Shown here in pieces: positions 7,149 to 62,982 of a stretch of 64,000 bases of DNA; position 1 is the first letter of the stretch, and every line of letters starts with the position of its first letter. The position numbers and the translations under genes were made by a program. Under the pieces are notes generated by a model that did not search any database, was not told where the DNA came from, and saw only the letters and a program-made list of their open reading frames with translations. This DNA is from an uncultured Gemmatimonas sp. (GTDB lineage Bacteria > Gemmatimonadota > Gemmatimonadetes > Longimicrobiales > Gaopeijiaceae), in the NCBI GenBank assembly GCA_964490285.1, contig CAZBCN010000006.1:13720-77719 (forward strand). The letters run 5' to 3'.

Positions 7149-7174
7149 ATGACCATCGCGACTCGCGAGGAACG

Positions 7175-46135: not shown

Positions 46136-46186
46136 GGAGCGTGCTACCCGCGATAGGCCTGATTGGCTCGATGCCACGTGTGTGGG

Positions 46187-47518
46187 TCAGCCGGGCTTTC
46201 CGAGCGCGGCACGCACCGCCCGGCGATCCACCTTCCCGTTCGGGTTCCGGGGAAGGCCGCCCCCGACCTGGTAACTTCGCGGCAGCTTGGCCGCGCTCAG
46301 GCGGGTCCGCAGATACGCGTCGAGCTCGTCGACATCGAGTCGGTCGCCGACCGGCTCGATCCAGGCGGCGACCCTCTCTCCCCACTCGGCGTCGGCCACG
46401 CCCACCGCACAGGCGTCGGCCACCGCCGGGTGCGACCGGAGCGCCTCCTCGACCTCGACCGCATCGATGGTCACACCCCCGCTGACGATCCGATCGATGC
46501 GGCGGCCCGTCACCCAGAGGTCGCCATCCGCGTCCAGCCGGCCGAGGTCTCCCGTGTGGTGCCATCCGTCCGCATCGACGAGCGAGTCGACGTCCTCACC
46601 TACGTACCCGGAGGCCAGCGTCGTCCCGCGTACGAGGATCTCCTCGTCGATGCCTATGCACAGGTCGACTCCATGCAGCGGACGGCCCACGGTCCCGGGC
46701 TTGCGTCGCGTTGCCTCGGGCGGCGATGTCGCCACCTGAGAGGTCGCCTCCGTCAGCCCGTACGTGAGCGCGATCGGCCAGCCCGCGGCCAACGCTCTCG
46801 CGAGTAAGCCACTCGGCGTCTCCGCCCCTCCCACCAACGCGCAACGGAACGACCCCGGTGGGGGTGCGCCCGCCGACACGTCGAGGAGCCGGAGGAGTTG
46901 CGTCGGCACGACCGAAACGTGGGTCACCGGTGTCCGCACGCCGCTCGGCAGTCCCCGGCCCGTGAGAAGCCCCCAAGCCAGCGCGGCATCGAACGGACCG
47001 ACAGCCACGAGCGCGCCGCCGAGCAGGATCGACCGCGTGACGAGAGCGAGCCCCCCGACATGCGCGGGCGAGAGGGACGCCAGCCAGACGTCGCCGGCGC
47101 CGAGCGACAGGCGCTCGGCCGCCCCGCCGGCGCTCGCCCGGAGCGCGTCGAAGCCGATCGCGACACCCCGCGGTCTGCCCGCGGTGCCCGAGGTCCAGAG
47201 GATCGCCTGCGCTCCTGGGGGGGCGCGCTTCAGACCCGCCCGGGCCGCCTCCTGCTCGGGCGGAGACAGCCTGGGGCTGAGCGGCGCGGGCGTCGCGCCG
47301 ATTCTCCAGAGCGCGAGCAGCTCGACCACGCCCGCGACATCCGGGTGGAGCACGCAGGGCACGGTCTCATCCTTTCGGTGGCCGCTCGCCCGCAAGGTGC
47401 TGGCGCGCTCGTCCACGGCACGGTCGAGCTCGCGGTACGTCCACGTCCTGTCGAGCTCGATCAGCGCGAGCGCCTCGTCGTTCGCTCGCGTGGCGCCCAG
47501 GAGGTCGACGACGGTCAT
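46187..47518 (-). CDS. menE: o-succinylbenzoate--CoA ligase (AMP-dependent synthetase)
   Basis: WTSGTAGRPRGV AMP motif and the GWHHTGDLG motif. Position in the men operon, with an ATGA overlap with menA. Confidence 0.75.
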   Translation of the reverse strand: MTVVDLLGATRANDEALALIELDRTWTYRELDRAVDERASTLRASGHRKDETVPCVLHPDVAGVVELLALWRIGATPAPLSPRLSPPEQEAARAGLKRAPPGAQAILWTSGTAGRPRGVAIGFDALRASAGGAAERLSLGAGDVWLASLSPAHVGGLALVTRSILLGGALVAVGPFDAALAWGLLTGRGLPSGVRTPVTHVSVVPTQLLRLLDVSAGAPPPGSFRCALVGGAETPSGLLARALAAGWPIALTYGLTEATSQVATSPPEATRRKPGTVGRPLHGVDLCIGIDEEILVRGTTLASGYVGEDVDSLVDADGWHHTGDLGRLDADGDLWVTGRRIDRIVSGGVTIDAVEVEEALRSHPAVADACAVGVADAEWGERVAAWIEPVGDRLDVDELDAYLRTRLSAAKLPRSYQVGGGLPRNPNGKVDRRAVRAALGKPG

Positions 47519-48402
47519 CCCACCGCCAGCCCTAGGGCGAACAAAGTCCCGTAGACGGCGACCACCCGCGCGGTGGCGCCGAGCGCAGGGATCAGCGAGT
47601 GCGGTTCCGTCGCGGTCATGACGGCGCGCGCCGGCGCCCAGCAGAGCGGCGCCGCGAGCAGGGCGCCCAGTGCGGGATATGGCCAGCCCAACGTCGCGAC
47701 CCCGACCGGCGGCACGGCCATCGCGGTCGCCAGCAGGACCAGGTACTCGACCCTGGTGCCCGTCCGTCCGAGCCGGACGGCGAGCGTGCGCTTCCCTGCC
47801 GCCGCGTCCGTGTCGATGTCACGGAGGTTGTTCGCCACGAGGATCGCCGTGCTGAGAGCGCCGAGGCCGACGCCCGCCAGCACGGCGCCGGGCGGCCACG
47901 CGAGCGCCTGCACCCAATACGTGCCGCCGACGGCCACCAGGCCGAAGAAGACGAAGACGAACAGGTCTCCCAGCCCGTGGTACGCGAGCGGGTAGGGGCC
48001 GCCCGTGTAGAGGACGGCGCACGCGAGCGAAGCGAGGCCGATCCACACGATTGGCCAGCCACCGACGGCCACCAGATACACGCCCGGGAGGAAGGCCAGG
48101 AGGAGCACGGCGACCATGGCGCGCCGAACGGCGTCGGGTGCGATCAGACCCGCTTGGGTCACGCGCACGGGCCCGACGCGGTCGACGGTATCGCCGCCGC
48201 GCACGAAGTCGTAGTAGTCGTTCGCGAGGTTCGTGGCGACTTGGATCAGGATCGCCCCGACGAGGGCCGCGACTGCAGGCAACACGGCGAGCCGACCGTC
48301 ATGGCTCGCCAACCCGGTGCCCACCAGGACCGGCGCGACCGCGGCGGTGAGGGTCTTCGGCCGCGCCGCCAGGATCCAGGCTTGGACGGTGCCTATCGCC
48401 AC
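47515..48402 (-). CDS. menA: 1,4-dihydroxy-2-naphthoate polyprenyltransferase
   Basis: GTG 48402 (VAIGTVQAWILAARPKTL). UbiA motifs NLANDYYDFVRG and NNLRDIDTD. Confidence 0.85.
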   Translation of the reverse strand: MAIGTVQAWILAARPKTLTAAVAPVLVGTGLASHDGRLAVLPAVAALVGAILIQVATNLANDYYDFVRGGDTVDRVGPVRVTQAGLIAPDAVRRAMVAVLLLAFLPGVYLVAVGGWPIVWIGLASLACAVLYTGGPYPLAYHGLGDLFVFVFFGLVAVGGTYWVQALAWPPGAVLAGVGLGALSTAILVANNLRDIDTDAAAGKRTLAVRLGRTGTRVEYLVLLATAMAVPPVGVATLGWPYPALGALLAAPLCWAPARAVMTATEPHSLIPALGATARVVAVYGTLFALGLAVG

Positions 48403-49058
48403 TCTTGGACGATGCGCGTCGTCACGATCGAATCCAGCTGTGGGTAGCGCCGACGCAGGTACTCGTTCCCGAGCTGGGCGATCGAGTCCTGCTGCGGCGG
48501 GTCGTCCGTATAGCCCGGATAGAACCCGTCGATCACGTCCAGGCCGCGAACGACCCGCCCGATCGGCGGATAACCCACGACGCCGCCCGCGGGGATCTCG
48601 TCCAGCCTCTCGTTGTCCACGAGGTTGACGAAGAGCGTGTACGAGCGGGTCTCCGGCCCCGCCCGCGCGTAGCTCACCATGCCTCGGACGTTGCTCTCCA
48701 CGACGGGCTCGTCGGCGATCGGACGCTCCTCCCAGATCGAGTCGAGCACGGGGTCCCCTGAGAAGCCCCACTGGGCGACGAACCCGCTCACGACCCGGTA
48801 GAAGCGGGCCCCCGCGTAGAAGTCGTTGCTCAGCAAGTGGTACATCCGATCCACGCCGAGCGGAGACCAGGAGCGATGCAGGGCGACGTCGAACGTGCCC
48901 TCGCTCGTGACGACCTCCGCCACGAACGAGTCCGGAGCGGCGACGGCGAGTGCCTCGGGGGTCGGCTGCCAGAGCGCGGCGTTCGGCCCACATGCCGCGA
49001 CCGGCAGCGCCGCGACGCTCACGGTCACGAGCGCCCACGAGCGGAGGAGGGGCCTCAT
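48393..49058 (-). CDS. exported cyclophilin-type peptidyl-prolyl isomerase
   Basis: Signal peptide/lipobox MRPLLRSWALVTVSVAALPVAAC. Cyclophilin motifs FYRVVSGFVAQWG and MVSYARAG. Confidence 0.85.
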   Translation of the reverse strand: MRPLLRSWALVTVSVAALPVAACGPNAALWQPTPEALAVAAPDSFVAEVVTSEGTFDVALHRSWSPLGVDRMYHLLSNDFYAGARFYRVVSGFVAQWGFSGDPVLDSIWEERPIADEPVVESNVRGMVSYARAGPETRSYTLFVNLVDNERLDEIPAGGVVGYPPIGRVVRGLDVIDGFYPGYTDDPPQQDSIAQLGNEYLRRRYPQLDSIVTTRIVQEWR

Positions 49059-49068
49059 GCGCCGCGCC

Positions 49069-49908
49069 TCACCACGGGAGCCATGGATACTTCCGGAAGT
49101 CGGGCTTTCTCTTCTCGACATAGGCGTTCCTCCCCTCCTGTCCCTGCTCCGTCATGTAGAACAGGAGCGTCGCGTTCCCCGCGAGCTCCTGGAGTCCCGC
49201 CTGCCCGTCCAGGTCGGCGTTGAATGCACTCTTGAGGAGCCGGATCGCGAGCGGACTCTTGGCGAGGATCTCCTGTGCCCACTCCCACCCCTCGGCCTCG
49301 AGACGTTCGAGCTGCACGACCTTGTTCACCAGGCCCATCTCGTACGCCTCCGCCGCCGAATACTGCCGGCAGAGGTACCAGATCTCGCGAGCGCGCTTCT
49401 GCCCCACGCACCGCGCCAGGTAGGACGACCCGAAGCCCCCGTCGAACGAGCCGACGATGGGTCCGGTCTGGCCGAACACCGCGTTCTCCGCCGCGATGGT
49501 CAGGTCGCAGACTACGTGGAGCACGTGTCCGCCGCCGATCGCGTACCCCGCGACCAGGGCGATCACCGGCTTCGGCATGGAGCGCATGTAGCGCTGCAGC
49601 TCGAGCACGTTGAGCCGCGGAACGCCGCTGGCGCCGACGTAGCCGGAGTCGCCGCGGACCTTCTGGTCGCCGCCCGAGCAGAACGCCCACTTACCGTCCT
49701 TGGAGGGGCCGTTCCCGGTGAGAAGTACGACGCCCACCTCCGTGTCCTCACCGGCGTTGCGGAACGCCTCGCTCATCTCGAGCAGGGTATCCGGACGAAA
49801 CGCGTTCCTGACCTCGGGGCGATTGAACGCGATCCGCGCCACGCCATCGCACTTGTGGTAGGTGATGTCCTGATATCGCTTCACTTCCTTCCAGTCTGGC
49901 TTCTTCAT
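49069..49908 (-). CDS. menB: 1,4-dihydroxy-2-naphthoyl-CoA synthase
   Basis: [25 protein letters not shown]...[11 protein letters not shown]...[11 protein letters not shown]... Confidence 0.92.
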
Positions 49909-51701
49909 TGCGGAGCGGTCTCCATGGAAACTGTCTCGCTTTCTCGGTCGAGGGCGCCTCGCACGCTGAGCGCAACCGCCTCTGCCAGCTCCAGGCGACG
50001 TCGATGGCTCGCCGCGCGCTCGGTGCGGACCCGCAGGATCTTCGTCCCTCCCGCAGCGATCGCTTTCTCCAGCGCCTCGCCGAGGTCGCCGAGTTCGGTG
50101 TCCTCGAGCTCGAGGCCGTGCAGCGCAGCCGCGTGACGGAAGTCGAGTCCGTGCGGCGTGGCGAAGTACCTCGTGAACTGCGTCTCGTGCTCGGCCACGG
50201 GCAACGCGTGGAAGATGCCGCCGCCGTCGTTGTCCACGAGCACGAAGGTCACCGCCGCATCTGGTTCGCGACTCCAGAGCAAACCGTTCTGGTCGTGGAA
50301 GAAGGCCACGTCACCCGTCACGCAGACCGTGCGACCCCGCCCCTGCGACGCGATGCCGAATGCCGTGGACACGATTCCGTCGATGCCGCTCGCACCCCGG
50401 TTGCCGAGCACCTCGAGCCCCTCCTCTCGAGGCAGGGCCAGGGCGTCGAGGTCCCGGACGGGCATCGAGTTGGACACGAAGAGCGTGCTTCCCTCGGTCA
50501 ATGACGAGAGCACTGCACCCCAGATATCTCCCTCCAGGAGCGTCCCCCGCATGGGCGAGAGGGCTTCCAGCGCGGCGGACTCCACCCTCCGCCAGAGGTC
50601 TTCCCACTCGGGTGCCACCGTACGGGTCGCGCGCGCGGCCAACGCCCGCAGTGTGTCCGCCGGGTCGGCCTGAACGTATCGCGTCGCGGTGGCCAGGTGA
50701 TCTTTCCACCTGCCGCCGGCGTCGATGACCACCTGCGACACGCCGTTGTGGTGCAGCAACCACGAGAGCAGTGCACCGGACGTCGGCGACGCACCTATCC
50801 GCAGAACCACGCTCGGGCTCAGTCGCTCGATCGTGAGAGCGTCGCGCAGGAACAGGTCGTACGCCGCGACGCAGTATGCCCCGCCCGCTGGACCGAAGCG
50901 CGCACCCGAGAGAGGATCCGCCAGCACGGGGAAGCCCGTGCTCGCCGCGAGCTCCCGGACCGCGGGCCCGACCCTCGCCGGATCGGCGCTCGGCCCGACG
51001 ACGATCACGCCCCTCGGGCTCGCGATCTCCTCGCGCAGGGCCTCGAGCTCCGGGACGGACGGCTGGGCGCGCGCACACGTGACGGCCACGAACGGCTCGC
51101 CGTCGGGTCGCCCCCGCGCGGCCAGGGGATGCGCGGCGGAGAACGCCTGTGGAACCTCGATGGGTTCGAGGGGCTTGTCGAACGGGATGTTCACGTGCAC
51201 GGGTCCGGCGGGTCGTCCCACGGCTGCGGCGACCGCCCGACCGGCCAGTCCGCGGAAATGGCGAAGCGCGGGGCCCTCGAGCGCGGGCTCGGGTGACTCG
51301 AAGAACTCTCTCACGTAGCCGCCGAACATCCGCACCTGATCGATGGTCTGGTTCGCGTCGGCACCCCTCAGCCGCGGCGGTCGGTCAGCGGTCACCACGA
51401 TGAGCGGTACCTCGGCAGCCCACGCCTCGACGACTGCGGGATAGACGTTGGCGACGGCCGTCCCCGAAGTCGTGAGAACAACCGCCGGCGTCCCGCTCGC
51501 CTTTCCCACACCGAGGGCGAAGAACGCCGCCGACCGCTCGTCGAGGTGGACCCTCGGCCGAAATCTGCCGTCGGCCGCGAATGCCATGACGAGAGGCGTC
51601 GATCGCGACCCGGGTGCGAGCGCGACTTCCCTGACGCCCGCGCGCGCGAGCTCGTCGACGAACGCTCGGGCCCAGGCGGTGTTCGCGGCCGCGTCGCTCA
51701 T
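49905..51701 (-). CDS. menD: 2-succinyl-5-enolpyruvyl-6-hydroxy-3-cyclohexene-1-carboxylate synthase
   Basis: ATG 51701 ([37 protein letters not shown]). ThDP motif GDVAFFHD...NNDGGGIF. ATGA overlaps at both ends. Confidence 0.9.
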
Positions 51702-53077
51702 ACGCTCGTGCGCGGAGATGCCGCGCGCCGCACGCTCACATCGCCCGCGAGCGCGAGCTGAGCGCCGCTCGCCGCCAGGGCCTCGAGCATGGGCTCGAAC
51801 TTGATTGCAGTCTCTTCCCACTCCGAAGCCGGCACCGAGCCCTCCACGATCCCCGCGCCTGCGAAGAGGCGCCAGCCGGACCCCGTCGAGACGCCCATGC
51901 GGAGAGAAGGCACGAAGATGCCGTTCCCGTCGGCGTCGAAGAGGCCCACGGGTCCCGCGTACCATCCGCGCTCGAAGGGTTCCTCTTCCGCGAGGAACGC
52001 CATCGCCGCGTCCCGTGGCAGCCCACACACCGCGGGCGTGGGGTGCAGGAGCCTCAGCAGATCGAGGATTCCGATCTCGGACGGCACGCTCGCCCGGATC
52101 TCCGTCTCGAGATGCTGGATGCGATCGAGCGTCAAGACGTGCGGTTGTGGATCCGTGCGGATCTGGTGTGCCACGGTCCCGAGCCTCGCAACCATGTCAT
52201 CCAGCGCGATGCGCTGCTCCACTCGGTCCTTTTCGCTGGCGAGCAAACGAGCCGCCAATTCCGCCTGCTCGCGCGGCGTGTCGCCCCGCCGGATCGAGCC
52301 CGCCACGGCGGTCGCATGGAATACGCCGTCGCGGAGCGTCGCCACCGTCTCCGGCGCGGCCCCCACGAGCGTCGAGCCGCGCGTCGGCTCGAACAGGAAG
52401 ACGTAACTCCCCCGGTTGACCCTCCAGAGATGGGCCACGACGTCGACCGGGTCGACCGACTCCTCGAGCTCGACGTCCAACGTCCGGGCGAGCACAGCTT
52501 TGGAGATGAGGCCACGGCGGATTGCCTCGAGCGACTCTCGAACCGTTTCCTCCCACCGGGCGCGATCGGTGGCCGCCCCGCTACCGCGAACCGCGGCGCG
52601 CGCGCGCGACGCGCCCTCGCCGGCGGCGGTGAGCTCGGCCCTGAGTGCTTCGGCACGCCGACGCAGGCGCCCGAACACATCCTGACCCGATCGTGCATCG
52701 ACCATCGCCCGCACGCGAAGCCAGGCGTCCCCCTCGCCCTCGCCCTCGAGCTCGAAGACCGGGACTTGGAAGAGCCAAGCCGGGAAATCGACCCATACCC
52801 CCTCGGCCACGTGATCCGGACGAAAGGAGAAGCCTCCGTAGAAGCGCAGCCGGGGCGCCCGCGTCGTGCCCTCGGGCACGAACGGGTCCGTCGCGAGCTC
52901 GCGCGCTGCCGACGCGACCTCCTCGAAGCGGTCCCCCGCCGAATCGACGCAGCGCAGCTCGGCCGCGACGCCACGGTGGGCGATCCATCGGTCGCCCCTC
53001 GCCCAGAAGCCCCGTTCCTCACCTTCGGCGTGGCGCAGGAACGCCTCGGGCCGGAGGTCGGGCGCAGGTATGGTCAC
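51698..53077 (-). CDS. menF: isochorismate synthase
   Basis: Chorismate-binding motifs HPTPAVCGLP and GWYAGPVG. The start is uncertain: GTG 53077 chosen, and the ORF-track extension to 53464 was judged non-coding. Confidence 0.8.
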   Translation of the reverse strand: MTIPAPDLRPEAFLRHAEGEERGFWARGDRWIAHRGVAAELRCVDSAGDRFEEVASAARELATDPFVPEGTTRAPRLRFYGGFSFRPDHVAEGVWVDFPAWLFQVPVFELEGEGEGDAWLRVRAMVDARSGQDVFGRLRRRAEALRAELTAAGEGASRARAAVRGSGAATDRARWEETVRESLEAIRRGLISKAVLARTLDVELEESVDPVDVVAHLWRVNRGSYVFLFEPTRGSTLVGAAPETVATLRDGVFHATAVAGSIRRGDTPREQAELAARLLASEKDRVEQRIALDDMVARLGTVAHQIRTDPQPHVLTLDRIQHLETEIRASVPSEIGILDLLRLLHPTPAVCGLPRDAAMAFLAEEEPFERGWYAGPVGLFDADGNGIFVPSLRMGVSTGSGWRLFAGAGIVEGSVPASEWEETAIKFEPMLEALAASGAQLALAGDVSVRRAASPRTSV

Positions 53078-53225
53078 CGTCGCGAGACGGGCCCTTCCGG
53101 GGTCTCGACTCAGGGGGGGCTCCTTCAGGCAGGGGGCGGCGCAGGCCCGCCAATATAGGGGGGCGCGGGCGTTCCTGAAGGTCAGGAAGCCGGTTTCTTG
53201 GCCGTGTGCATCACCCTGGGTCAGC

Positions 53226-53636
53226 ATGGTGCTGGAACGCACCACCATCTCACTGCCGGACGACCTGATTCGGCGTTTGCGCTCGATCGCGGCCGAGGAG
53301 GGTACGTCGGTGTGGGCATTGGCGCCGCGGGCCACAGGGACACGGCCCGTCGGGCCGGGCAGGAGCGAACGGAGCCACACCCGTGGCCGGGAGGCTGATC
53401 GAGACGGCGAGCCGTGGTCTCGGCGATCCTGCTTCACCTCGAGCTCCTCCACCGGCCCCCCCACTCTCGCCCGCGCGCGGGCCGCCCAGATCGAGCTGCT
53501 CGCAGACGAACTCTCCTCAGACCCGTCGGACTCGCGCGACCCCTCCGAGCCCGAGCGCCTCCCGGTTTCGAGCTCGATCAGTCCGTGCCCGCCGAGGTGT
53601 GGGGCCCCCTTGCTGAGGGCGATCGCCGTCGACTAG
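53226..53636 (+). CDS. possible ribbon-helix-helix (CopG-like) protein with a low-complexity tail; may be degenerate
   Basis: N-terminus MVLERTTISLPDDLIRRLRSIAAEEGTS is a textbook RHH strand plus helix 1. The rest (VWALAPRATGT...) does not look like helix 2. GC3 cannot discriminate, because the antisense ORF shares the third codon position. Confidence 0.35.
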   Translation: MVLERTTISLPDDLIRRLRSIAAEEGTSVWALAPRATGTRPVGPGRSERSHTRGREADRDGEPWSRRSCFTSSSSTGPPTLARARAAQIELLADELSSDPSDSRDPSEPERLPVSSSISPCPPRCGAPLLRAIAVD

Positions 53637-53738
53637 AGTGGGAAATGCGCCCCCCTGACCGTGCTCCTGGTCTCCGAGACCGGGGTACGAAGGGCACCCT
53701 CCGGCGCTGACTGGCAACCCCCCACCAGGAGGCCCCCC

Positions 53739-56306
53739 ATGCGTCGGCACTTCAGCCGAAGCTCTCGGCTCGTCGTACCCGGCTCACTCGCGCTCCTGCT
53801 CCTCGGTTCGTGCACCGACGAGCAGGCACTTCCCACTGGCTCGGACCTCGTCGCGCCCCAGCTCGCCATCACGGGCGGCAACGGAACCCCGGGCGGGCTG
53901 GACGCCGCCACCGTGCGCGAGACCGGCCAGGTCTCGCTCTCCGTGGACGGGCTCGGGTTCCTCTCGGGGAACGTGGGGCTCATCCAGGTCCAGAAGCCGG
54001 CCGGCGCCACGGTCCGGAAGGCCTACCTGGCCACGTCGAACGCCTTCAACACCCTGGCGCGCAACATGCCGCCCGGGGACACCCATATCCTCCAGCCCAC
54101 GGGCGGCCCGACCGTCGCGACGTCCGTGGCCCACAGCGTGGTCGTGGTCAACCACATATCCTCACACAACGGCTGGGCCGACGTCACGCAGCACGTGAAG
54201 AGCCAGATCGACACCGCCCCCGCGGGTGTCGTCGACGTCAGGCTCTGGGAGACGTTCCCGGGCATTACCGAGGGCCAGATCCTCTCCGTCATCTTCGACG
54301 ATCCGTCCGTCACGACCGACAACACCATCTTGCTCTTCTTCGGGGCGATGCGAGAGAACGGCGTCGTGGACGCGCGGCTCAATGTTCAGTTCGACGATCC
54401 GATCGACCTCTCCGATCCGGCGCTCAGAATCGACATGTCGGTCGGGATCTCGCACAGCAATCAGGGCTTCGGCCTCGACGACGCCACGTACATCAGCGTG
54501 AACGGTGCGCGTATGACCTCGTGCGCCGGAGGGTACGACGACGGTGGGGCCGCCATCGGTGCGTTCATCACGGTCGGCGGCGTCGGCAACAGCATCGCGA
54601 ACCCCTCGGACCCGAACTGCCGCGCATCCTACGGGTCGTTCTACGACGACGAGCTCTACAACCTGGTGCCGTTCGTCCAACCGAGCGCGACGCAGATCCA
54701 GATCGAGCTGGGGCACGCGGAAGGGGTGCTGGACGACAACCTCTTCTTCGCGGCGTTTTCCATCGCGCAGACGCCCGCTCCCACCAACAACGCACCCACC
54801 GCGAACGCGGGTGGACCATACTCGGGGTTCGAGGGCTCACCGGTGACGTACACCGGAGCCGGCTCGTCCGACCCGGACGGCGACGCGCTCACGTACGCGT
54901 GGACCTTCGGCGACGGCGGTACGGCGACCGGTGCGGATCCGACCCACGTGTACGCCGACAACGGGGTCTACACCGTGGGGCTGACCGTCGCCGACCCCTC
55001 CTCCGCAACGGGCTCCGCGACGGCCACGGCTACGATCGCGAACGTCCGGCCGAGCCTTCCGTCCCTCGCCGGCCCGAACGCGCCGGTCGCGTCCGGAGCC
55101 GCCGTTACCGTGGGCGGAGCCTTCACCGATCCGGGCGTCCTCGACACCCACACGGTCAGCTACGACTGGGGAGACGGGACGGTGGAGCCGGGAGCCGTCA
55201 GCGAGACCAACGGTTCGGGAAGTGTGAGCGGCACGCACGTGTATGCGGCTCCCGGCACCTACGTCGTCACCGTCGTCGTGACGGACAAGGACGGGGATTC
55301 CGGATCCGCGACGTTGGAGATCGTCGTCGAGGACAGCAACGCGGCGCCGACGGCGAACGGCGGAGGCCCGTACGTCCGCCTCGAAGGGTCGATGGTGAGC
55401 TTCGACGGAACGGCCTCCGCCGACCCCGACGGGGATGCGCTCACCTACACATGGGACTTCGGCGACGGGGCGACGGGCGTGGGGGCGACGCCGAGCCACA
55501 CCTACCTCGACAATGGTGTCTACACGGTGACGCTCGTCGTCGAGGATCCGTCCGGGGCGACCGGGTCCGCTTCGACCACCGTGAGCGTCGCGAACGTGGC
55601 GCCGACCCTCGGCGGCCTCACCGGTCCGATCGATCCGACGCGGGTCGGGACCCCGGTCACGGTGGGCGGCAACTTCACGGATCCTGGCGTCATCGATACG
55701 CACTCGGTCGCGTTCGACTGGGGCGACGGGGCGACGAGCGTGGGCAGCGTCACCGGCGGCGGCGGTTCGGGCGGGGTCGGCGCCGGCCACGTGTACGCTG
55801 CGGCCGGGGTCTATACCGTGACCGTCACACTCACGGATGACGACGGGGGCGTGCACCAACTCGGTTACGAGTTCGTGGTCGTGTACGATCCGGACGCGGG
55901 CTTCGTGACCGGCGGCGGTTGGATCGACTCGCCCGCGGGTGCTTATCGGCCCGACACCGGGCTCACGGGCCGGGCCAACTTCGGTTTCGTGTCCCGCTAC
56001 AAGCAGGGCGCGTCGACTCCCAGCGGGAACACGGAATTCCAGTTCCGCGCCGGGGACCTGAACTTCAAGAGTTCGGCGTACGAGTTCCTCGTCATCACCC
56101 AGGGCGGAACCCGAGCGCAGTACAAGGGCGCCGGCACGATCAACGGCGCCGGGGCCTATCAGTTCATGATCTGGGCGACCGACGGATCGCCGGACACGTT
56201 CCGCATCAAGATCTGGAGCGAGTCCGGAGGGGTCGAGACAGTCGTCTACGACAACGGGTTCGATCAAGCGCTCGGAGGTGGCTCGATCGTCATCCACAGG
56301 AAGTAG
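53739..56306 (+). CDS. lipoprotein: unknown N-terminal domain of about 340 aa, four PKD domains, and a C-terminal beta-rich domain of about 140 aa
   Basis: AGGAGG SD. Lipobox LLLLGSC. PKD signatures GSSDPDGDALTYAWTFGDG, YDWGDG, ASADPDGDALTYTWDFGDG, FDWGDG. Confidence 0.8.
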   Translation: MRRHFSRSSRLVVPGSLALLLLGSCTDEQALPTGSDLVAPQLAITGGNGTPGGLDAATVRETGQVSLSVDGLGFLSGNVGLIQVQKPAGATVRKAYLATSNAFNTLARNMPPGDTHILQPTGGPTVATSVAHSVVVVNHISSHNGWADVTQHVKSQIDTAPAGVVDVRLWETFPGITEGQILSVIFDDPSVTTDNTILLFFGAMRENGVVDARLNVQFDDPIDLSDPALRIDMSVGISHSNQGFGLDDATYISVNGARMTSCAGGYDDGGAAIGAFITVGGVGNSIANPSDPNCRASYGSFYDDELYNLVPFVQPSATQIQIELGHAEGVLDDNLFFAAFSIAQTPAPTNNAPTANAGGPYSGFEGSPVTYTGAGSSDPDGDALTYAWTFGDGGTATGADPTHVYADNGVYTVGLTVADPSSATGSATATATIANVRPSLPSLAGPNAPVASGAAVTVGGAFTDPGVLDTHTVSYDWGDGTVEPGAVSETNGSGSVSGTHVYAAPGTYVVTVVVTDKDGDSGSATLEIVVEDSNAAPTANGGGPYVRLEGSMVSFDGTASADPDGDALTYTWDFGDGATGVGATPSHTYLDNGVYTVTLVVEDPSGATGSASTTVSVANVAPTLGGLTGPIDPTRVGTPVTVGGNFTDPGVIDTHSVAFDWGDGATSVGSVTGGGGSGGVGAGHVYAAAGVYTVTVTLTDDDGGVHQLGYEFVVVYDPDAGFVTGGGWIDSPAGAYRPDTGLTGRANFGFVSRYKQGASTPSGNTEFQFRAGDLNFKSSAYEFLVITQGGTRAQYKGAGTINGAGAYQFMIWATDGSPDTFRIKIWSESGGVETVVYDNGFDQALGGGSIVIHRK
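54783..55890 (+). repeat. four tandem PKD modules arranged as a duplicated two-module unit (A-B-A'-B')
   Basis: Modules 1 and 3 share APTANxGGPY...DPDGDALTYxWxFGDG...NGVYTV. Modules 2 and 4 share VTVGGxFTDPGVxDTHxVxxDWGDG. Confidence 0.7.
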
Positions 56307-56666: not shown

Positions 56667-56752
56667 AGAGGGTATGACCGCAAGGCGCCCGTCGCGTGGA
56701 TGCTGATTCACTCCCTGATCATCGGCTCGGGCCTCTACTTCCTCGGCGGCGC

Positions 56753-57787
56753 TTGACGCGCGTACGTACGTCGGCTCTCGCGATGGCCCTCTGGGCCGCG
56801 GGCGCCGCCCTCTCGGGATGCAGCGGAACCACGAGTCCGGAGGACGAGTGGACGGGCCCTTTGCGTCCCGCCGTCTTCGTCCAATCACCGCTCCGGCTTT
56901 CGGACATCACCGAGATCATCTCGATCGGTAACCTGGCGCCCCCTGGGCACACGCTCCCTACCGAGCACGCGTACTTCTTCTTCGAGAAGGACTACGCTCC
57001 GAGCGCGCCCCTCCCGCGGCTGCCGGTCTTCGTCCCCGCTTCCGGAAGGGTGACGCGAACGATGGTGATGGACCACCCGAACAGCTTTCGGGTGGACATC
57101 CAGGTGAACCCCTGGCTGTCGTACTACATGATCCTGATCGATCTCGATCCCGCGAAATACACGCCAGGGCGGGCGGTCACCGCAGGCGAGCAGATCGGCG
57201 TGACGTTCGGGATCGCGAATACGCTCGACCTGGGTGTCATCAATCGGCGTCTGGAGCGGAAAAGCTTCGCGCGGCCGGAGCGTTACGACCACGCCGACAC
57301 CCATTGGATCGATTCGCCTTTCCGCTATTTCGCGGAGCCGGTGCGCAGCGACATCTACGCTCGGGTGAACCGCGAAGGGGCGGACAAGGACGGGACTCTG
57401 GAAGTCGACGTCGTCGGGAGCCTCGCCGGGATGTGGTACCGGGAGGACGTTCCGGTGAATACGGCCGATCGCGCGCTCCTTTCTCGCGCCATCGTCTTCG
57501 CTCCGGACGTTCGTCGTCCCACGGAGAAGCGCGTTTCGATCGGCGAGGGCTTCTCGATCCAAGGGCTCTACGGCGTCCAGGCCGGAGCGCCCGAGTTCGC
57601 GGACGTCGGGCCCGGCACCGGGCGCATCGGCTACCGTCTCGACGCGATGGACAACAGCTCGGACCCATGGCGCGGGGTCCTGGTGGTGCAGCTCGTCGAC
57701 GCGACCTCGCTCGATGTCGAGTTCTTCCCGGGCGCTACGGACCTGGCACTGGCGTTCACGGGCGACAAGACGCGGTACGTGCGATAG
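56753..57787 (+). CDS. hypothetical lipoprotein
   Basis: TTG 56753 gives MTRVRTSALAMALWAAGAALSGC, with a lipobox. ATG 56783 is the alternative. No family recognised; a degenerate M23-like barrel is only a guess. Confidence 0.55.
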   Translation: MTRVRTSALAMALWAAGAALSGCSGTTSPEDEWTGPLRPAVFVQSPLRLSDITEIISIGNLAPPGHTLPTEHAYFFFEKDYAPSAPLPRLPVFVPASGRVTRTMVMDHPNSFRVDIQVNPWLSYYMILIDLDPAKYTPGRAVTAGEQIGVTFGIANTLDLGVINRRLERKSFARPERYDHADTHWIDSPFRYFAEPVRSDIYARVNREGADKDGTLEVDVVGSLAGMWYREDVPVNTADRALLSRAIVFAPDVRRPTEKRVSIGEGFSIQGLYGVQAGAPEFADVGPGTGRIGYRLDAMDNSSDPWRGVLVVQLVDATSLDVEFFPGATDLALAFTGDKTRYVR

Positions 57788-58420: not shown

Positions 58421-58995
58421 GCTCCCTTCGATGCCGAGGTCGTGATCTGCGAAGGGATGGAGATCGTCCGACTCCTGTCTGGACGAAGTCGGCCTGTCGA
58501 AGCGGGCCAGGTATCGGGCACTCCAACGGGCCATCGTCCTGTCGGCCGGATTCGCCCCGCAACGGGTGAATTCAGGGGCGGCCTCGGCGCCATCTTGCGG
58601 ACTCCGGTGGGCTAGCTAAGACTGTCCGCCGCCCCCCCATGGCGAACATCCCTGTAATCCTCACCTTGCGCGACGCACCCGTGCATCCGCTCGCTGCGGC
58701 TAAGTCGCGCGCAGTGGTAGCCGCATTGTTCGCTGGTGTGGCCCTCCCGCCATCGTCTGCGGCGCCGAGTGACGGACGCTTCTCGTTCGTCGACCCCTCG
58801 TGTTGGACGGTCGGCCTGAACCGGAGCACGGGGCAACGATCACGTCATCCGAGCCGACGTTTTTCAAGCCATCCAGCTCACTGTTTTTCCACCCGGGCGC
58901 GTCTCGCCGGGTCTCGTACGTGGGTCGACGTTGCCGTCAAGGCATCGGCGGCAACGGCACCGCCATTAGATAGCTCAAGTCAATAGGAGAACATC

Positions 58996-61900
58996 GTGAA
59001 GTGCACGCGTCGTTGGGCGAATGCCCTGGTCGCAATGCTGATGGTCGGCACGTTCATCAGTTGCCGAGAAGTCGAGCCGCTGGCCCCGCTGGCGGATAGA
59101 CCGAACTTCGCCATTTCAGACGCTGTGCACGGAGATGGAGTCGCGGGCTTCTACTTCCGTTCTCCCATGGTCCCCGACGTGCCGCTCCCCGGCACGTTCG
59201 ATCCTGGATTGAATCCGGAGGTCACGGTCTGTGAATGGGATGGGACGACCTGCGCCGCGCTCATCGCGCATTTCACGACCACGTCGGGCCCGGGGGCGGA
59301 GAGCGTCAGGGCCAACGGCGACCACTACCAGGTCAATTGGCACGCGAGGGACTACGATCTCGACCCTGCCAAGACCTACCGGATCGTCGTGGCCGTCGGT
59401 GGAACGGAGTTGGGCTTTGCCGATGTGGATGTCGTCGCCAACGGCCGAGAGCTAAAGAACGTGAACACCGGCGAGTTCATTCCGCTCGTCGAGGATCGCA
59501 CCCTGCCCATCAAGTTCTACATCCAAGCCGGAACGGTTGCGGCGTTCGGACCGTCGGGCGGGCACTTCGTTTTGGCGGACGGCGACGTCGAGATCACGGT
59601 TCCCGAGGGTCTCCTGCAGCAGCCACTGGGCATCACCGTGCGTCGCGCTCCGCTCGATGCGGGTGAGTACGCGGATGCCGCGCTGATGCCGGGCACGACG
59701 TACGACTTCGGGCCCGACGGTACCGTGTTCGACGCCCCAGGCATCCGCGTCACGATTCACTACGATCCGGCGAATCTCGGTGACATGACTCCCGACCAGC
59801 TGACGCTGGTGACGCAGATCGACGGACTCTGGGCTGACCTCGGCAACGTCGCCGTGGATGAGAGCGCCCGCACTGTAAGCGCAGATCTGGCGCACTTCAC
59901 GTTGGTGAACATCGCGGCGATCATCAAGCCGGTCATCACTGGTCCAGACCCGCTGAACATGGTCACAGGGCAGGTCCTCGACCTGATTGGCGAGGTCGGC
60001 TACCGTCGCGCGGCGTACTGGAGGTCCAGCGCATCCACGATCGTTTCCGTCGACACGCCGATCGGGCCGCTGAGCGGGAGGATCACGGCCAGGACGCCAG
60101 GCACGGCGAACATCTATCTCACCACCGAGGACCCGGTGGTCGCGACGGTCGTGAGGGCGGACACACTCAGGGTGAACGTCAGCGCACCGGGCATCGGTTC
60201 TCTCCACAACGTGACGGGCGGGTTCAACTTCACATGCGGCCAGGACGGAAGTGGTGTCGCGTATTGCTGGGGCCAGAACTCATTCGGTCAACTGGGTGAT
60301 CGCACCACCACGAATCGCTCGACACCTGTGCCGGTAGCTGGTAACCTGCAGTATACCACGGTTGTCGCCGGGGGCGCGCACGCGTGTGGACTCACCGTGG
60401 ATGGCAGGGCCTGGTGCTGGGGACGCAACAACTTCGGTCAGCTGGGTGACAACACGCTCATCGATCGCGCGGCGCCCGCGCCGGTCATGGGGGACTGGCG
60501 CTTCGCGCTGATCACGGCGGGTGACCGACACACGTGCGGCTTCACGCTGGTGCAGCCGACCCAACCAGCCGCTCTGCTCTGCTGGGGATCCAACGAGTGG
60601 GGCCAGTCCGGCGGTGCGCTCGGCGGAGCGGCAGCAAAGCAGCCGTTTGCCCTTCAGGTGAACCCGGCCGGCGGCGTCAGCAGTCTGGACGCGGGCCTGG
60701 GTCATACCTGCGCCGTGATTGGCGGTGCCGCCACGTGCTGGGGGCTCAACAGCAACGGTCAGCTCGGCGATGGGTCGACCACGAACTCGACCTTCGCTTA
60801 CAACCGAGTCCAGCCGCCAAGGCCGTTCCGTTCGATCAGCGCCGGACCCGCGCACACGTGCGCGATCACGACGTCCGATGAAGCCTACTGCTGGGGCCGC
60901 AACACTGCTGGCCAGCTCGGTGACAACACTACGACGGATCGAGGCCTCGCGAACCTGCCGGTCAGCGGCGTGGAACTGTGGTCTCAGATCGACGCCGGTG
61001 GATCCACCGGCACGACCTGCGCCCTCACGACTTCCGCGAGCCTGAACCCCGACAAGCTGTACTGCTGGGGCCGTAACGCGGCGGGCAATGTCGGCGACGG
61101 CACGAACATCGACCGCGCGGTGCCCGTCGAGGTGAGCAGCGGCGAAACTTTCCGCCAAGTCGGCGCCACCGGTGGGGGGCACGTATGCGCGACGGAGGTG
61201 GGCGGCGGTGGCTGGTGCTGGGGCCTCAACGCCTTCGGGCAGTTGGGGGACAACTCGCTCACCAGCCGAAATGCGCCAGTACAGGTCGGCGCGTTCACGG
61301 TGGTACCGGGCCTCCTCCCGGGGTCGCTGTCCGGGTCCGTCAAGCGGCTGTTCTTGAACACGCCGCTGCACACGGTGCGGGTATCACCCACCTATGGGTT
61401 CCCGTCGCTGACGGACGCGCAGGGGGCCTATGCGCTCGGCCCAATGATTCCGGGCCCGACGACGCTGAAGCTCGAGTTCCTGCCGGCCGGGTGCGTCGAT
61501 CCCGGCATCAACTGGACGATTCAGAGTGGTCAAAATCCCGGGCTGCTCATCCAGGTTCCGTGCTACGAGATCGCGTCGGTGGCGATCGCTCCTGCGGCGG
61601 CTACACTGCAGGTAGGGACGATCCTGACGCCAGTCGTCACCGTTCGGGACAATCAGGGCACGGTCGTGCCCGTGCAGGCGACGTTCTCCACCACGGGGCC
61701 GATCTCCGTGACACCGACCGGCCAGGTGACCGCGCAGTTCGTGGGTAGCGGCGTGTTGACGGCGACTGCCTCGCCCGCGTTCGGCCAATCGCGGATCACG
61801 GTGCAGGGCGGTTGTGCCGCGGCTCCCGTGGCCGGCTGCGTGCTGACGGGTCACGTGCCCGCGCTCGCGCCGTACCTCCGTTCCGTCGGCGCTCCCGCCG

Positions 61901-62982
61901 CGACCACGATCGAGTTCACGAACGCAGGCATCTTTGGCATCAAGGTGTTCTGGCTGGACTACAATGGAACGCCGCAGCCGTACCTCGACCTGGCCCCGGG
62001 TCAGACCCAGGGCATCGGCACATTCACGACGCATCCCTGGCTCGTGACCAATGATTTTGGGACGCCTCTCGGCGTCTACGTGAATCCTGCGACGACGCTC
62101 GCGAGGGTGATCCAAGGAGGTGTCTTACCGTCGTACACGAACGTGCGGGACAACGGCTTCCCCCTCAGCTCGGTCTGGGGCTCATCCGCGAGCGACGTGT
62201 GGGCCGTTGGATTTGGCGCCCATCCGCTACGCTACCAGGGTGGAACCTGGGGCGTGGTGAACACACCCACGACGCCGCCGCACGGGCCCCTCAACGACGT
62301 TTGGGGCACCGGCGCCAACGATGTCTATGCAGTTGGTTGGAGCGGCCGGATCATTCACTTCGATGGAGCCAACTGGAGTGCCCCCGCGCCCGGTATCCCC
62401 GACGTATTCCTGAACGGTGTGTGGGGTGCCGGCGGCCGGGTGTATGCGGTCGGCAGCGCGGGCACGATCATGGCGTACGATGGCGTGAGCTGGGCGCCGG
62501 AAGTCAGCAACACGGCGGTCCAGTTGCAAGACGTGTGGGCGGCCGACGCCAACAACGTGTGGGCAGTCGGAGACGGCGGGGTCATCGTTCGTCGTGTGGG
62601 CGGCGTTTGGGTGGAGCAGGTGGTAGGTCCGCCCACGCGAAGCTTCCGTGGCGTATGGGGCACGTCGATCAGCAACGTGTACGCGGTCGGTCAGGGCGGG
62701 ATGATCTACCGCTTCGACGGGAGCAACTGGATCGCGGAGACAAGCAACACGACCCAGACGCTGCAGGCGGTCGGCGGCACGTCGACGGGCGCCGTCGTTG
62801 CGATCGGCGCTCAGGGCACGTACCTACGCCGCACGGGCGTGGGCGGCTGGGTCCCGCAGCCGGTCCCGTCAGCGGATGTATTGGAGGGGATCTGGTTCGC
62901 CTCATCGACCGACGCGGTCGTCGTCAGCAGCATCTCGACGACAGTGCCGCAGACCGGGGCGATCCTGCGCGGACTTCCCTGA
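58996..62982 (+). CDS. 1328-aa multidomain lipoprotein: N-terminal domain, Ig-like, 7x RCC1 propeller, CarboxypepD_reg-like, Ig-like, VHL-beta-like, and a second 7-blade propeller
   Basis: AGGAGA SD and GTG start. Lipobox MVGTFISC. Seven CWG-N--GQLGD repeats. Segment LRSV...FTN...WLDYNGTPQPY...HPWL. Seven L-dVWG---n-VyAVG--G-i--fDG--W blades. Confidence 0.85.
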   Translation: MKCTRRWANALVAMLMVGTFISCREVEPLAPLADRPNFAISDAVHGDGVAGFYFRSPMVPDVPLPGTFDPGLNPEVTVCEWDGTTCAALIAHFTTTSGPGAESVRANGDHYQVNWHARDYDLDPAKTYRIVVAVGGTELGFADVDVVANGRELKNVNTGEFIPLVEDRTLPIKFYIQAGTVAAFGPSGGHFVLADGDVEITVPEGLLQQPLGITVRRAPLDAGEYADAALMPGTTYDFGPDGTVFDAPGIRVTIHYDPANLGDMTPDQLTLVTQIDGLWADLGNVAVDESARTVSADLAHFTLVNIAAIIKPVITGPDPLNMVTGQVLDLIGEVGYRRAAYWRSSASTIVSVDTPIGPLSGRITARTPGTANIYLTTEDPVVATVVRADTLRVNVSAPGIGSLHNVTGGFNFTCGQDGSGVAYCWGQNSFGQLGDRTTTNRSTPVPVAGNLQYTTVVAGGAHACGLTVDGRAWCWGRNNFGQLGDNTLIDRAAPAPVMGDWRFALITAGDRHTCGFTLVQPTQPAALLCWGSNEWGQSGGALGGAAAKQPFALQVNPAGGVSSLDAGLGHTCAVIGGAATCWGLNSNGQLGDGSTTNSTFAYNRVQPPRPFRSISAGPAHTCAITTSDEAYCWGRNTAGQLGDNTTTDRGLANLPVSGVELWSQIDAGGSTGTTCALTTSASLNPDKLYCWGRNAAGNVGDGTNIDRAVPVEVSSGETFRQVGATGGGHVCATEVGGGGWCWGLNAFGQLGDNSLTSRNAPVQVGAFTVVPGLLPGSLSGSVKRLFLNTPLHTVRVSPTYGFPSLTDAQGAYALGPMIPGPTTLKLEFLPAGCVDPGINWTIQSGQNPGLLIQVPCYEIASVAIAPAAATLQVGTILTPVVTVRDNQGTVVPVQATFSTTGPISVTPTGQVTAQFVGSGVLTATASPAFGQSRITVQGGCAAAPVAGCVLTGHVPALAPYLRSVGAPAATTIEFTNAGIFGIKVFWLDYNGTPQPYLDLAPGQTQGIGTFTTHPWLVTNDFGTPLGVYVNPATTLARVIQGGVLPSYTNVRDNGFPLSSVWGSSASDVWAVGFGAHPLRYQGGTWGVVNTPTTPPHGPLNDVWGTGANDVYAVGWSGRIIHFDGANWSAPAPGIPDVFLNGVWGAGGRVYAVGSAGTIMAYDGVSWAPEVSNTAVQLQDVWAADANNVWAVGDGGVIVRRVGGVWVEQVVGPPTRSFRGVWGTSISNVYAVGQGGMIYRFDGSNWIAETSNTTQTLQAVGGTSTGAVVAIGAQGTYLRRTGVGGWVPQPVPSADVLEGIWFASSTDAVVVSSISTTVPQTGAILRGLP
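60200..61290 (+). repeat. seven RCC1-type repeats (beta-propeller)
   Basis: YCWGQNSFGQLGD, WCWGRNNFGQLGD, LCWGSNEWGQSGG, TCWGLNSNGQLGD, YCWGRNTAGQLGD, YCWGRNAAGNVGD, WCWGLNAFGQLGD. Confidence 0.8.
62165..62979 (+). repeat. seven repeats of about 40 aa forming a second predicted propeller
   Basis: VWGSSASDVWAVG, VWGTGANDVYAVG, VWGAGGRVYAVG, VWAADANNVWAVG, VWGTSISNVYAVG, VGGTSTGAVVAIG, IWFASSTDAVVVS. Confidence 0.65.

What the first reader, a model, noticed from the sequence alone, without database searches (positions are those of the whole stretch)
61876..62100. Ungapped match to the human pVHL beta domain, including the hydroxyproline-pocket residues
Residues LRSVGAPAATTIEFTNAGIFGIKVFWLDYNGTPQPYLDLAPGQTQGIGTFTTHPWLVTND align without gaps to human pVHL 63-121. 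As I recall it, that segment reads [59 protein letters not shown]. About 21 of 57 positions are identical. The positions corresponding to the HIF hydroxyproline pocket are kept: W88, Y98, S111 (Thr here), H115 and W117. So are the disease hot spots S65, F76 and N78. Bacterial VHL-beta-domain proteins are annotated in databases, but I am not aware of any that has been functionally characterised. Here the module is extracytoplasmic and embedded between an Ig-like domain and a propeller. This raises the possibility of recognition of hydroxyproline or polyproline ligands, such as collagen-like or plant/algal HRGP-type substrates.
Basis: partly seen in the sequence, partly recalled or inferred. Interest (0 to 1): 0.7.

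Follow-up and report, generated by a model that had tools for sequence, protein, structure and literature searches.

The report
Bacterial VHL-beta domain in exported lipoprotein
A large exported bacterial lipoprotein carries a true relative of the ligand-binding half of the human VHL tumour suppressor, with the hydroxyproline-pocket residues kept; the domain family is already catalogued, but what it binds in bacteria is unknown.

Summary
Window 61876-62055 (+) encodes the quoted peptide inside a 1328-aa ORF (58996-62982). The recalled human pVHL sequence is correct. Ungapped identity is 20/59; no shuffle of 200,000 exceeded 13. Pfam VHL (PF01847) scores 37-42 bits (cut-off 21), phmmer against PDB gives E=4e-8, and an AlphaFold model (pLDDT 86) matches only pVHL chains (TM 0.77-0.80, rmsd 1.3-2 A). 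W88, Y98, S111 (Thr here), H115 and W117 are kept.

These residues are not special to this gene. They are the signature of a large family, presumed mostly prokaryotic (at least 1532 clusters at 50% identity; W 99%, T/S 94%, H 92%, W 90%, Y 74% in 313 copies), often in tandem arrays of up to 10.

The host protein has a lipoprotein signal, ten close Cys pairs, an RCC1 propeller and a Ycf48-like C-terminal propeller. It has no VHL alpha domain, so it is not an E3 adaptor.

I found no prolyl hydroxylase in the window, in an ortholog's context, or around 80 other VHL-domain genes, and no conserved operon. The protein is already in NCBI with PF01847 precomputed.

Verdict: a real new member of a known, uncharacterised domain family. 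Hydroxyproline binding is plausible but untested.

The parts
58986..58989 (+). Shine-Dalgarno-like GGAG, 6 nt upstream of the GTG start
   Evidence: Read directly from the sequence
58996..62982 (+). ORF of 1328 aa (stop included) encoding the multidomain lipoprotein. It is identical to the NCBI protein held as P0158.
   Evidence: GC3 0.81 supports this frame
58996..59064 (+). Signal peptide with lipobox (MKCTRRWANALVAMLMVGTFIS|C23)
   Evidence: Sequence. Ortholog P0006 has a canonical LGAC lipobox at the same place. Inference from the lipoprotein signal consensus.
59065..59889 (+). N-terminal region of unknown fold (aa 24-298), with a weak ZU5-like match
   Evidence: ZU5 16.5 bits, below the cut-off. 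Conserved in P0006, P0159 and P0089.
59890..60210 (+). Probable Big_2-type Ig-like domain (aa 299-405), sub-threshold
   Evidence: PF02368 at 20.4 bits against a cut-off of 22.8, E 5e-4
60208..61305 (+). RCC1-like beta-propeller (about aa 405-770) with one close Cys pair per blade (7 pairs)
   Evidence: PF25390 178 bits; PF00415 139 bits; Cys positions
61318..61830 (+). Two unassigned all-beta segments (aa 775-945): a weak CarboxypepD_reg-like match, then the putative 'Ig-like' flank
   Evidence: PF13620 at 14.6 bits, not significant; nothing for aa 852-945; the model has pLDDT about 25 here
61858..62130 (+). VHL beta domain (aa 955-1045; profile core aa 961-1036 = nt 61876-62103)
61951..62040 (+). 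Codons of the pocket-equivalent residues: W986 (61951-53), Y996 (61981-83), T1009 (62020-22), H1013 (62032-34), W1015 (62038-40)
   Evidence: family conservation
62143..62979 (+). C-terminal 7-bladed beta-propeller of 'xVWGxxxxDVWAVGxxG' repeats, Ycf48-like
   Evidence: pLDDT 75-90; best PDB hit Ycf48, E 8e-11, TM 0.73. Relatives occur in Myxococcota, Chloroflexota and Actinomycetota MAGs.

Best explanation
The segment is a true homolog of the pVHL beta domain (Pfam PF01847). It is one module of a 1328-aa exported lipoprotein of an uncultured, high-GC, diderm bacterium. The other modules are an RCC1-like propeller and a Ycf48-like propeller.

The domain belongs to a very large family, presumed mostly prokaryotic, in which the residues that form the human hydroxyproline pocket (W88, Y/F98, T/S111, H115, W117) are the most conserved positions. 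The surrounding peptide-contact positions vary.

I therefore read it as a ligand-binding module that uses the same pocket as pVHL. It has no alpha domain or BC-box, so it cannot recruit elongin C/cullin and is not a ubiquitin-ligase adaptor.

Shown: homology, fold, conserved pocket residues, export signals, absence of an alpha domain. Inferred: the pocket binds a ring-plus-hydroxyl ligand, most likely a (hydroxy)proline within an extended peptide of an extracellular protein. In that reading the whole protein is a multivalent surface binding or capture protein.
For: Homology: Pfam VHL scores 37-42 bits against a cut-off of 21. phmmer to human pVHL gives E 4e-8. A 77-sequence profile of these domains hits only pVHL in PDB, at E 2e-14.

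Fold: the AF2 model has pLDDT 86.2, and the top 50 Foldseek PDB hits are all pVHL, with TM 0.77-0.80 and rmsd 1.3-2 A.

Pocket: in 313 domain copies from 150 representative proteins, W88 is 99%, T111+S 94%, H115 92%, W117 90% and Y98 74%. All five fall in the 10 most conserved of 77 columns (about 1e-5 by hypergeometric count, my calculation). Human contact positions 99, 107 and 110 are variable. The three full-length orthologs keep W, T, H and W.

Export: SD site plus lipobox, and ten close Cys pairs.

Modularity: the domain occurs 1-10 times per protein. It is fused to secreted modules (CAP, PKD, Big_2, ricin lectin, MACPF) and to TIR, caspase, SAM and trypsin modules. It sits at a different position in the paralog-like P0089.

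No alpha domain: the propeller follows the beta domain directly.
Against: There is no independent evidence for hydroxyproline. I found no prolyl hydroxylase or 2OG oxygenase in the window or near ortholog P0006. A verified PHD2 probe gave no hit at E<=10 in 478 kb around 80 VHL-domain genes. There is no recurrent neighbour family.

F76 and W117 belong to pVHL's structural aromatic core (PMC3688787), so part of the conservation is structural. Y98 is Phe in the closest orthologs, and H115 is Asn in P0029.

Pocket geometry was not superposed because no coordinates are available. An aromatic cage with Thr and His would equally suit a sugar or another small ligand. The hit set was collected with this domain as query, which inflates conservation at its own residues somewhat.
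Confidence: 0.5

Rival explanations
1. The domain is a VHL-fold binding module, but the conserved aromatic/Thr/His pocket binds a non-peptide ligand such as a sugar ring of a polysaccharide or glycoprotein. In that case it acts like a lectin or carbohydrate-binding module on a surface protein.
For: Trp/Tyr/Trp platforms with hydroxyl and imidazole hydrogen-bonders are typical of carbohydrate sites (general knowledge). Tandem arrays of up to 10 copies in ~2000-aa proteins, and fusion to ricin-type lectin, PKD and Big_2 modules, resemble CBM/lectin architectures. There is no link to prolyl hydroxylases.
Against: No glycoside hydrolase or polysaccharide lyase appears among the listed partner domains. 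Partners such as TIR, caspase, SAM and the cytoplasmic retron-X accessory fit protein or peptide recognition better. The only characterised relative binds a peptide.
Confidence: 0.2
2. The domain is a structural spacer. The 'pocket' residues are kept because they stabilise this small beta-sandwich, and the domain has no ligand of its own in this protein.
For: F76 and W117 are part of pVHL's core aromatic tetrahedron. Large exported proteins often carry beta-sandwich spacers. The context is not conserved. Y98 becomes Phe in orthologs.
Against: Near-invariance of polar surface residues (T111 88% plus S 6%; H115 92%) across at least 313 copies is hard to explain by packing alone. The domain is recruited to many unrelated architectures as a discrete unit and is also a stand-alone ~120-160-aa exported protein, which is the behaviour of a functional module.
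Confidence: 0.15
3. The domain reads an endogenous hydroxyproline mark written by a bacterial prolyl hydroxylase elsewhere in the genome, making a prokaryotic counterpart of the PHD-VHL pair.
For: The Hyp-contacting T/S111 and H115 are conserved. Bacterial PHD-like enzymes exist; for example the PHD2 probe reaches PDB entry 4iw3, which I recall as Pseudomonas PPHD.
Against: No hydroxylase lies next to any of 80 VHL-domain genes, in the 64-kb window or near the ortholog. This protein is exported, whereas known bacterial PHD substrates are cytoplasmic (my knowledge).
Confidence: 0.1
4. The similarity to pVHL is chance or convergence.
For: None beyond the modest 34% identity.
Against: Shuffle test 0 of 200,000; Pfam score above the gathering cut-off; profile E 2e-14; fold match rmsd 1.3-2 A.
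Confidence: 0.01

Closest known systems
Human pVHL beta domain (residues 63-154; PDB 1LM8, 1LQB, 4AJY)
   Same: Same Pfam family. The predicted 6-7-strand beta-sandwich superposes at rmsd 1.3-2 A. W88, Y98, H115 and W117 are identical, S111 is Thr, and S65, F76 and N78 are identical.
   Different: No alpha domain or BC-box, so no elongin C/Cul2 recruitment. The domain is shorter: the human 137-150 insertion and helix H4 are absent. It is exported rather than cytoplasmic/nuclear. Peripheral HIF-contact residues differ (P99, R107, H110 become L, Q, G). No partner hydroxylase was found.
VHL-beta domain proteins from genomes and metagenomes, presumed prokaryotic (Pfam PF01847 members; e.g. the retron type X accessory protein, PMC7736814; Litorilituus EMK97_00595, PMC9002001)
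   Same: Same domain with the same signature S..F.N..W.D..G..Y..L.PG....T[FY]..HPW. The family is often exported. Its function is unknown in every case.
   Different: The architecture here (lipoprotein + RCC1 propeller + VHL + Ycf48-like propeller) is seen in only three proteins: the target, P0159 and P0006. Most relatives are small single-domain proteins or tandem arrays.
Human VHL-like protein (VHLL/VLP)
   Same: A beta-domain-only protein that lacks the alpha domain and so cannot nucleate the E3 complex (bioRxiv 10.1101/2020.06.15.152298).
   Different: It is a recent cytoplasmic retrogene copy of VHL, not an exported multidomain protein.
Ycf48/HCF136 seven-bladed propeller (PDB 2XBG, 5OJR)
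   Same: The C-terminal domain of the host protein is the closest structural match, with 7 blades, E 8e-11 and TM 0.73.
   Different: Only 17% identity. It is fused to other modules and there is no photosystem context.

Membership tests
Pfam PF01847 VHL beta domain | Score above the curated gathering threshold of the family HMM | tested here: met
   37.2 bits (whole protein) and 41.9 bits (segment) against a cut-off of 21. PF01847 is also precomputed for the identical NCBI protein P0158.
Pfam PF01847 VHL beta domain | pVHL-type beta-sandwich fold | tested here: met
   AF2 model pLDDT 86.2. All top 50 Foldseek PDB hits are pVHL, with TM 0.77-0.80 and rmsd 1.3-2 A.
Pfam PF01847 VHL beta domain | Signature residues S65, F76, N78, W88, G93, Y98, S/T111, H115, W117 | tested here: met
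   All are present in the target, and they are the most conserved columns of the family.
Hydroxyproline-reading VHL (functional class of metazoan pVHL) | Pocket geometry: the five residues form a surface pocket with the S/T111 hydroxyl and H115 imidazole positioned to hydrogen-bond the 4-OH | not testable with these tools
   Model coordinates are not exposed. Only the global rmsd and the sequence register are available.
Hydroxyproline-reading VHL (functional class of metazoan pVHL) | Hyp-dependent binding of a peptide ligand | not testable with these tools
   Needs binding assays.
Hydroxyproline-reading VHL (functional class of metazoan pVHL) | A partner prolyl 4-hydroxylase in the same genome or neighbourhood | tested here: not met
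   None in the 64-kb window, near ortholog P0006, or around 80 VHL-domain loci with a verified PHD2 probe. The rest of the genome was not available, so genome-wide absence is not shown.
pVHL orthologs (CRL2 substrate receptor) | Alpha domain with a BC-box that binds elongin C | tested here: not met
   The beta domain runs straight into the C-terminal propeller. There is no helical segment and no alignment to human residues 155-192.
Bacterial lipoproteins | N-terminal signal peptide ending in a lipobox Cys | tested here: inconclusive
   The sequence has a positively charged n-region, a hydrophobic core and FIS|C23, which is a non-canonical -3 Phe. The ortholog has a canonical LGA|C. No dedicated predictor was available.
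RCC1-like propeller proteins (PF25390/PF00415) | Multiple RCC1 repeats above threshold | tested here: met
   PF25390 178 bits (cut-off 150); PF00415 139 bits over 6 stretches.

The most novel reading that the evidence does not exclude
The large VHL-beta family found here (at least 1532 clusters at 50% identity, often exported, up to 10 copies per protein) is an ancient family of hydroxyproline or modified-proline 'reader' modules. On this reading the metazoan oxygen sensor pVHL was built by adding an alpha domain to such a module. In this protein the module would tether the cell surface to Hyp-bearing extracellular proteins such as collagen-like or plant/algal/fungal wall proteins.
Probability: 0.2. 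Interest if true: 0.75.

Novelty: new member of a known kind. Interest (0 to 1): 0.42.

Why it matters
pVHL's recognition of hydroxyproline is the core of animal oxygen sensing and the handle used by most PROTAC drugs, yet where the pocket came from is not known. This survey shows that the pocket residues are the most conserved feature of a large domain family that lacks the ubiquitin-ligase half and has no visible hydroxylase partner.

A single binding experiment on a small, well-predicted ~90-residue exported domain would settle whether Hyp recognition predates animals or the pocket was repurposed. For this gene alone the consequence is modest. It names one module of an otherwise unannotated surface protein, which JGI calls an 'RCC1 family protein' in the ortholog.

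Tried and rejected
1. The word-indexed homolog search with the segment alone found nothing. With the 77-sequence profile it found only 7 short proteins. The exhaustive HMMER search was needed.
With aa 861-1328 it returned only C-terminal-propeller relatives, none with a VHL domain, so it gave no ortholog or organism.
3. Exact look-ups of the target, P0158 and panC in the gene-position index failed. The source is an unnamed NCBI contig of 78,497 bp, so the organism is not identified. Gemmatimonadota is only a guess, from the nearest named RCC1 hits and an ADOP-like permease.
Rerun with 5 rows, it left aa 775-953 unresolved, so the 'Ig-like' flank stays unconfirmed. Pfam and PDB sequence searches on that segment were negative.
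6. The BFVD viral fold search gave only weak, unnamed hits.
7. The 'Extensin_1' co-hit is just a Pro-rich linker in P0035.
8. The context of the small VHL protein P0154 (ECF sigma/anti-sigma nearby) did not recur in other loci.
9. Literature searches for PF01847, 'VHL-like' bacteria, and VHL with TIR/caspase conflict systems found no functional study.
Full report
**1. Observation**

Window 61876-62100 (+) translates to LRSVGAPAATTIEFTNAGIFGIKVFWLDYNGTPQPYLDLAPGQTQGIGTFTTHPWLVTNDFGTPLGVYVNPATTL. It lies inside a single long ORF, 58996-62982, of 1328 aa. The reverse strand of the segment has no comparable reading, and codon-position GC (GC3 0.81) supports the + frame.

The match to pVHL is E = 3.8e-8 at 36.7 bits, and everything else in PDB is noise. 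Ungapped identity over human 63-121 is 20/59. In 200,000 shuffles of the bacterial peptide the maximum was 13.

Pfam's VHL model (PF01847) scores 37.2 bits in the full protein and 41.9 bits on the isolated segment, against a gathering cut-off of 21. With human n = target n+898, the equivalences are S65=S963, F76=F974, N78=N976, W88=W986, Y98=Y996, S111=T1009, H115=H1013 and W117=W1015.

**2. Fold**

I modelled aa 953-1046 with AlphaFold2, using a 77-sequence alignment of diverse domain copies. The model has mean pLDDT 86.2 (above 93 in the core) and six clear strands. Foldseek against PDB returned pVHL chains for all 50 top hits, with E about 5e-8, TM 0.77-0.80 normalised to the query, and rmsd 1.3-2 A over about 88 columns.

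A profile of the 77-sequence alignment finds only pVHL among all PDB sequences, at E = 2e-14. No non-animal VHL-like domain has a solved structure. Model coordinates are not exposed to me, so I could not measure pocket geometry.

**3. The family**

An exhaustive phmmer search of 1.84 billion cluster representatives found 1532 proteins at E<=1e-3 and 95 at E<=1e-10. The library carries no taxonomy. I treat the family as mostly prokaryotic because most hits are of metagenomic origin and carry bacterial-type partner domains, but this was not tested. Many proteins carry 2-10 tandem copies; P0001, of 2000 aa, has ten, confirmed by Pfam at 346 bits. Of 105 hit proteins scanned, 104 pass Pfam VHL.

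Across 313 domain copies, the conservation at human-numbered positions is:

| Position | Conservation |
|---|---|
| W88 | 99% |
| N78 | 97% |
| G93 | 92% |
| H115 | 92% |
| W117 | 90% |
| S65 | 89% |
| T111 | 88% (plus S 6%) |
| F76 | 79% |
| D90 | 77% |
| Y98 | 74% |

F/Y112 is 89% combined. The human HIF-contact positions 99, 107 and 110 are variable. All five Hyp-pocket residues are therefore among the ten most conserved of 77 columns, which is about 1e-5 by simple counting. The pocket is the family signature, not a peculiarity of this gene.

There are three caveats:
- The hits were collected with this domain as query, which inflates conservation at its own residues.
- F76 and W117 belong to pVHL's structural 'aromatic tetrahedron' (PMC3688787), so their conservation is partly structural. 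Y98, S/T111 and H115 are the diagnostic ones.
- In the two closest orthologs Y98 is Phe, and in P0029 H115 is Asn. The target's human-like 'PQPY' is not conserved even in its own lineage, and it inflates the identity to human.

**4. The host protein**

- **Start and export signals.** A GGAG lies 6 nt upstream of the GTG start. The N-terminus is a signal peptide ending FIS|C23, and ortholog P0006 has a canonical LGA|C. Apart from C3 and C23, all 20 cysteines fall in ten close pairs, including one pair in each of seven RCC1 blades. This pattern is expected for a disulfide-bonded exported protein. A TolC-like OEP gene in the window shows the organism is diderm.
- **Domains.** In order:
  - an unassigned N-terminal region with a sub-threshold ZU5 hint;
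  - a sub-threshold Big_2 domain (20.4 bits against 22.8);
  - an RCC1-like propeller (PF25390, 178 bits);
  - two unassigned beta segments;
  - the VHL beta domain;
  - a C-terminal repeat region. The repeat region folds at pLDDT 75-90 into a 7-bladed propeller closest to Ycf48, with E 8e-11 and TM 0.73.
The 'propeller' flank is confirmed. The immediately upstream 'Ig-like' flank is not: there are no Pfam or PDB hits and the model has pLDDT about 25 there.
- **No alpha domain.** Nothing resembling the pVHL alpha domain or BC-box follows the beta domain. The protein cannot be a cullin-ligase adaptor.

**5. Relatives and context**

The identical protein is already in NCBI (P0158, on a 78,497-bp contig) with PF01847 among its precomputed domains. 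Only two other proteins share the full architecture: P0159 (67%) and P0006 (66%). P0089 has the same N-terminus and RCC1 propeller, but its VHL domain sits before the propeller. P0029, P0082 and P0124 share a 'beta segment + VHL' unit. Relatives of the C-terminal propeller in 21 GTDB genomes lack VHL. The domain therefore behaves as a mobile module.

Neighbouring genes are unrelated housekeeping and surface genes: a menaquinone cluster, a four-PKD protein and an unknown 363-aa protein. The ortholog's neighbourhood is entirely different.

**6. Testing the hydroxyproline idea**

- Pfam scans of about 46 GC3-supported ORFs across the whole window found no 2OG-Fe(II) oxygenase and no collagen-like gene.
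- I verified my recalled PHD2 catalytic domain against PDB: 559 bits to EGLN1. It also reaches 4iw3, 6iuq and 6t8m.
- I then used PHD2 as a probe against all ORFs in 478 kb around 80 metagenomic VHL-domain genes, the window, and 23 other loci. There was no hit even at E<=10.
- A Pfam census of 105 neighbours of de-duplicated loci gave 140 families, none recurrent.

There is thus no genomic link to a hydroxylase and no conserved operon. This does not exclude an exogenous Hyp ligand or a distant hydroxylase gene, but it removes the one line of independent support I could test.

**7. Partner domains**

The partner domains are both secreted (CAP, PKD, Big_2, ricin-type lectin, MACPF, beta/gamma-crystallin) and cytoplasmic signalling or conflict modules (TIR x3, caspase, SAM, trypsin). 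The retron type X accessory protein has a cytoplasmic VHL domain (PMC7736814). About half of the M-starting hit proteins (66 of 132) have signal-like N-termini. A correlated Cys pair (76 of 78 copies) marks an exported subfamily. This is the behaviour of a general recognition module.

**8. Interpretation**

The firm part is that this is a bona fide VHL beta domain, exported, with the pocket residues intact and without the E3 half.

The inferred part is that the pocket binds a ligand in the pVHL manner. By analogy the ligand is most likely a (hydroxy)proline in an extended peptide, which would make the protein a multivalent surface binding protein. A sugar or other small ligand, or a mainly structural role, cannot be excluded.

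**9. Novelty**

Prokaryotic VHL beta domains are in Pfam and are mentioned in the literature as of unknown function (PMC7736814; PMC9002001 is purely in silico). I found no experimental study. This gene is a new member of a known but uncharacterised kind.

The wider result is of moderate interest and directly testable. It is that the Hyp-pocket signature defines a large family with tandem arrays and no hydroxylase linkage.

Noticed in passing
window 11811-13103 (+), 15215-17005 (-), 17017-19458 (-), 45236-46177 (-); also 13100-15196 (+): There are four caspase-domain (Peptidase_C14) genes in one 64-kb window. Three are clustered, and PPC pre-peptidase domains occur in one of the clustered genes and in an adjacent gene. 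Separately, one VHL-domain protein elsewhere (P0018) is a caspase-VHL-VHL fusion.
   Followed up: partly
P0001-P0005, P0007, P0008 (representative proteins): Giant proteins of 1700-2050 aa consist almost entirely of 5-10 tandem VHL beta domains. P0001 has 10 copies and a Pfam VHL score of 346 bits. Such arrays suggest multivalent binding to a repetitive ligand.
   Followed up: partly
Hit proteins: VHL beta domains are fused to TIR_2 (3 proteins), caspase, SAM, Trypsin_2, MACPF, CAP, ricin-type lectin and beta/gamma-crystallin domains. That is a mix of immune/conflict-type and secreted architectures.
   Followed up: no
P0089 (786 aa) versus the target: A homolog has the same N-terminal region and RCC1 propeller, but its VHL domain is inserted before the propeller (aa 305-365) rather than after it. 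This indicates domain shuffling within this protein group.
   Followed up: partly
313 aligned domain copies: A correlated cysteine pair: 78 copies have Cys at the human-126-equivalent position, and 76 of these also have a Cys within 25 residues upstream of S65. This is probably a disulfide marking an exported subfamily. The target lacks it and instead has a C940/C948 pair just upstream.
   Followed up: partly
window 60208-61305 (target aa 414-741): Each of the seven RCC1 blades carries a close Cys pair (414/424, 464/474, 514/529, 572/581, 622/632, 675/690, 731/741). This is unusual for RCC1 repeats and consistent with an extracytoplasmic, disulfide-stabilised propeller.
   Followed up: no
window 53661-56306 (+) and 56696-57787 (+): Immediately upstream on the same strand lie an 881-aa protein with four PKD domains plus Big_9, and a 363-aa protein with no Pfam match. 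The pairing is not conserved next to ortholog P0006.
   Followed up: partly
window 46187-53464 (-): A menaquinone biosynthesis cluster on the minus strand: MenF-like chorismate-binding, MenD-like TPP enzyme, MenB-like enoyl-CoA hydratase, a UbiA prenyltransferase overlapping a cyclophilin ORF, and a MenE-like AMP-binding enzyme.
   Followed up: no
window 7136-9601 (+): An 821-aa protein with duplicated MacB_PCD/FtsX domains (ADOP-like permease). From memory, this type is common in Acidobacteriota and Gemmatimonadota. The nearest named RCC1 hits of the target are Gemmatimonadaceae/Gemmatimonadota MAGs. The organism was not identified.
   Followed up: no
window 2430-4898 (+): An 822-aa ORF in which only residues 561-814 match PanB (ketopantoate hydroxymethyltransferase). 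The long N-terminal extension overlaps minus-strand ORFs with higher GC3 (2352-4028), so the mechanical start is probably too far upstream.
   Followed up: no
L022 3545-6423 (Logan SRR27026606): A small exported single-domain VHL protein (P0154, 140 aa) lies near an ECF sigma factor and an RskA-type anti-sigma gene. The association did not recur in the 105-neighbour census.
   Followed up: yes
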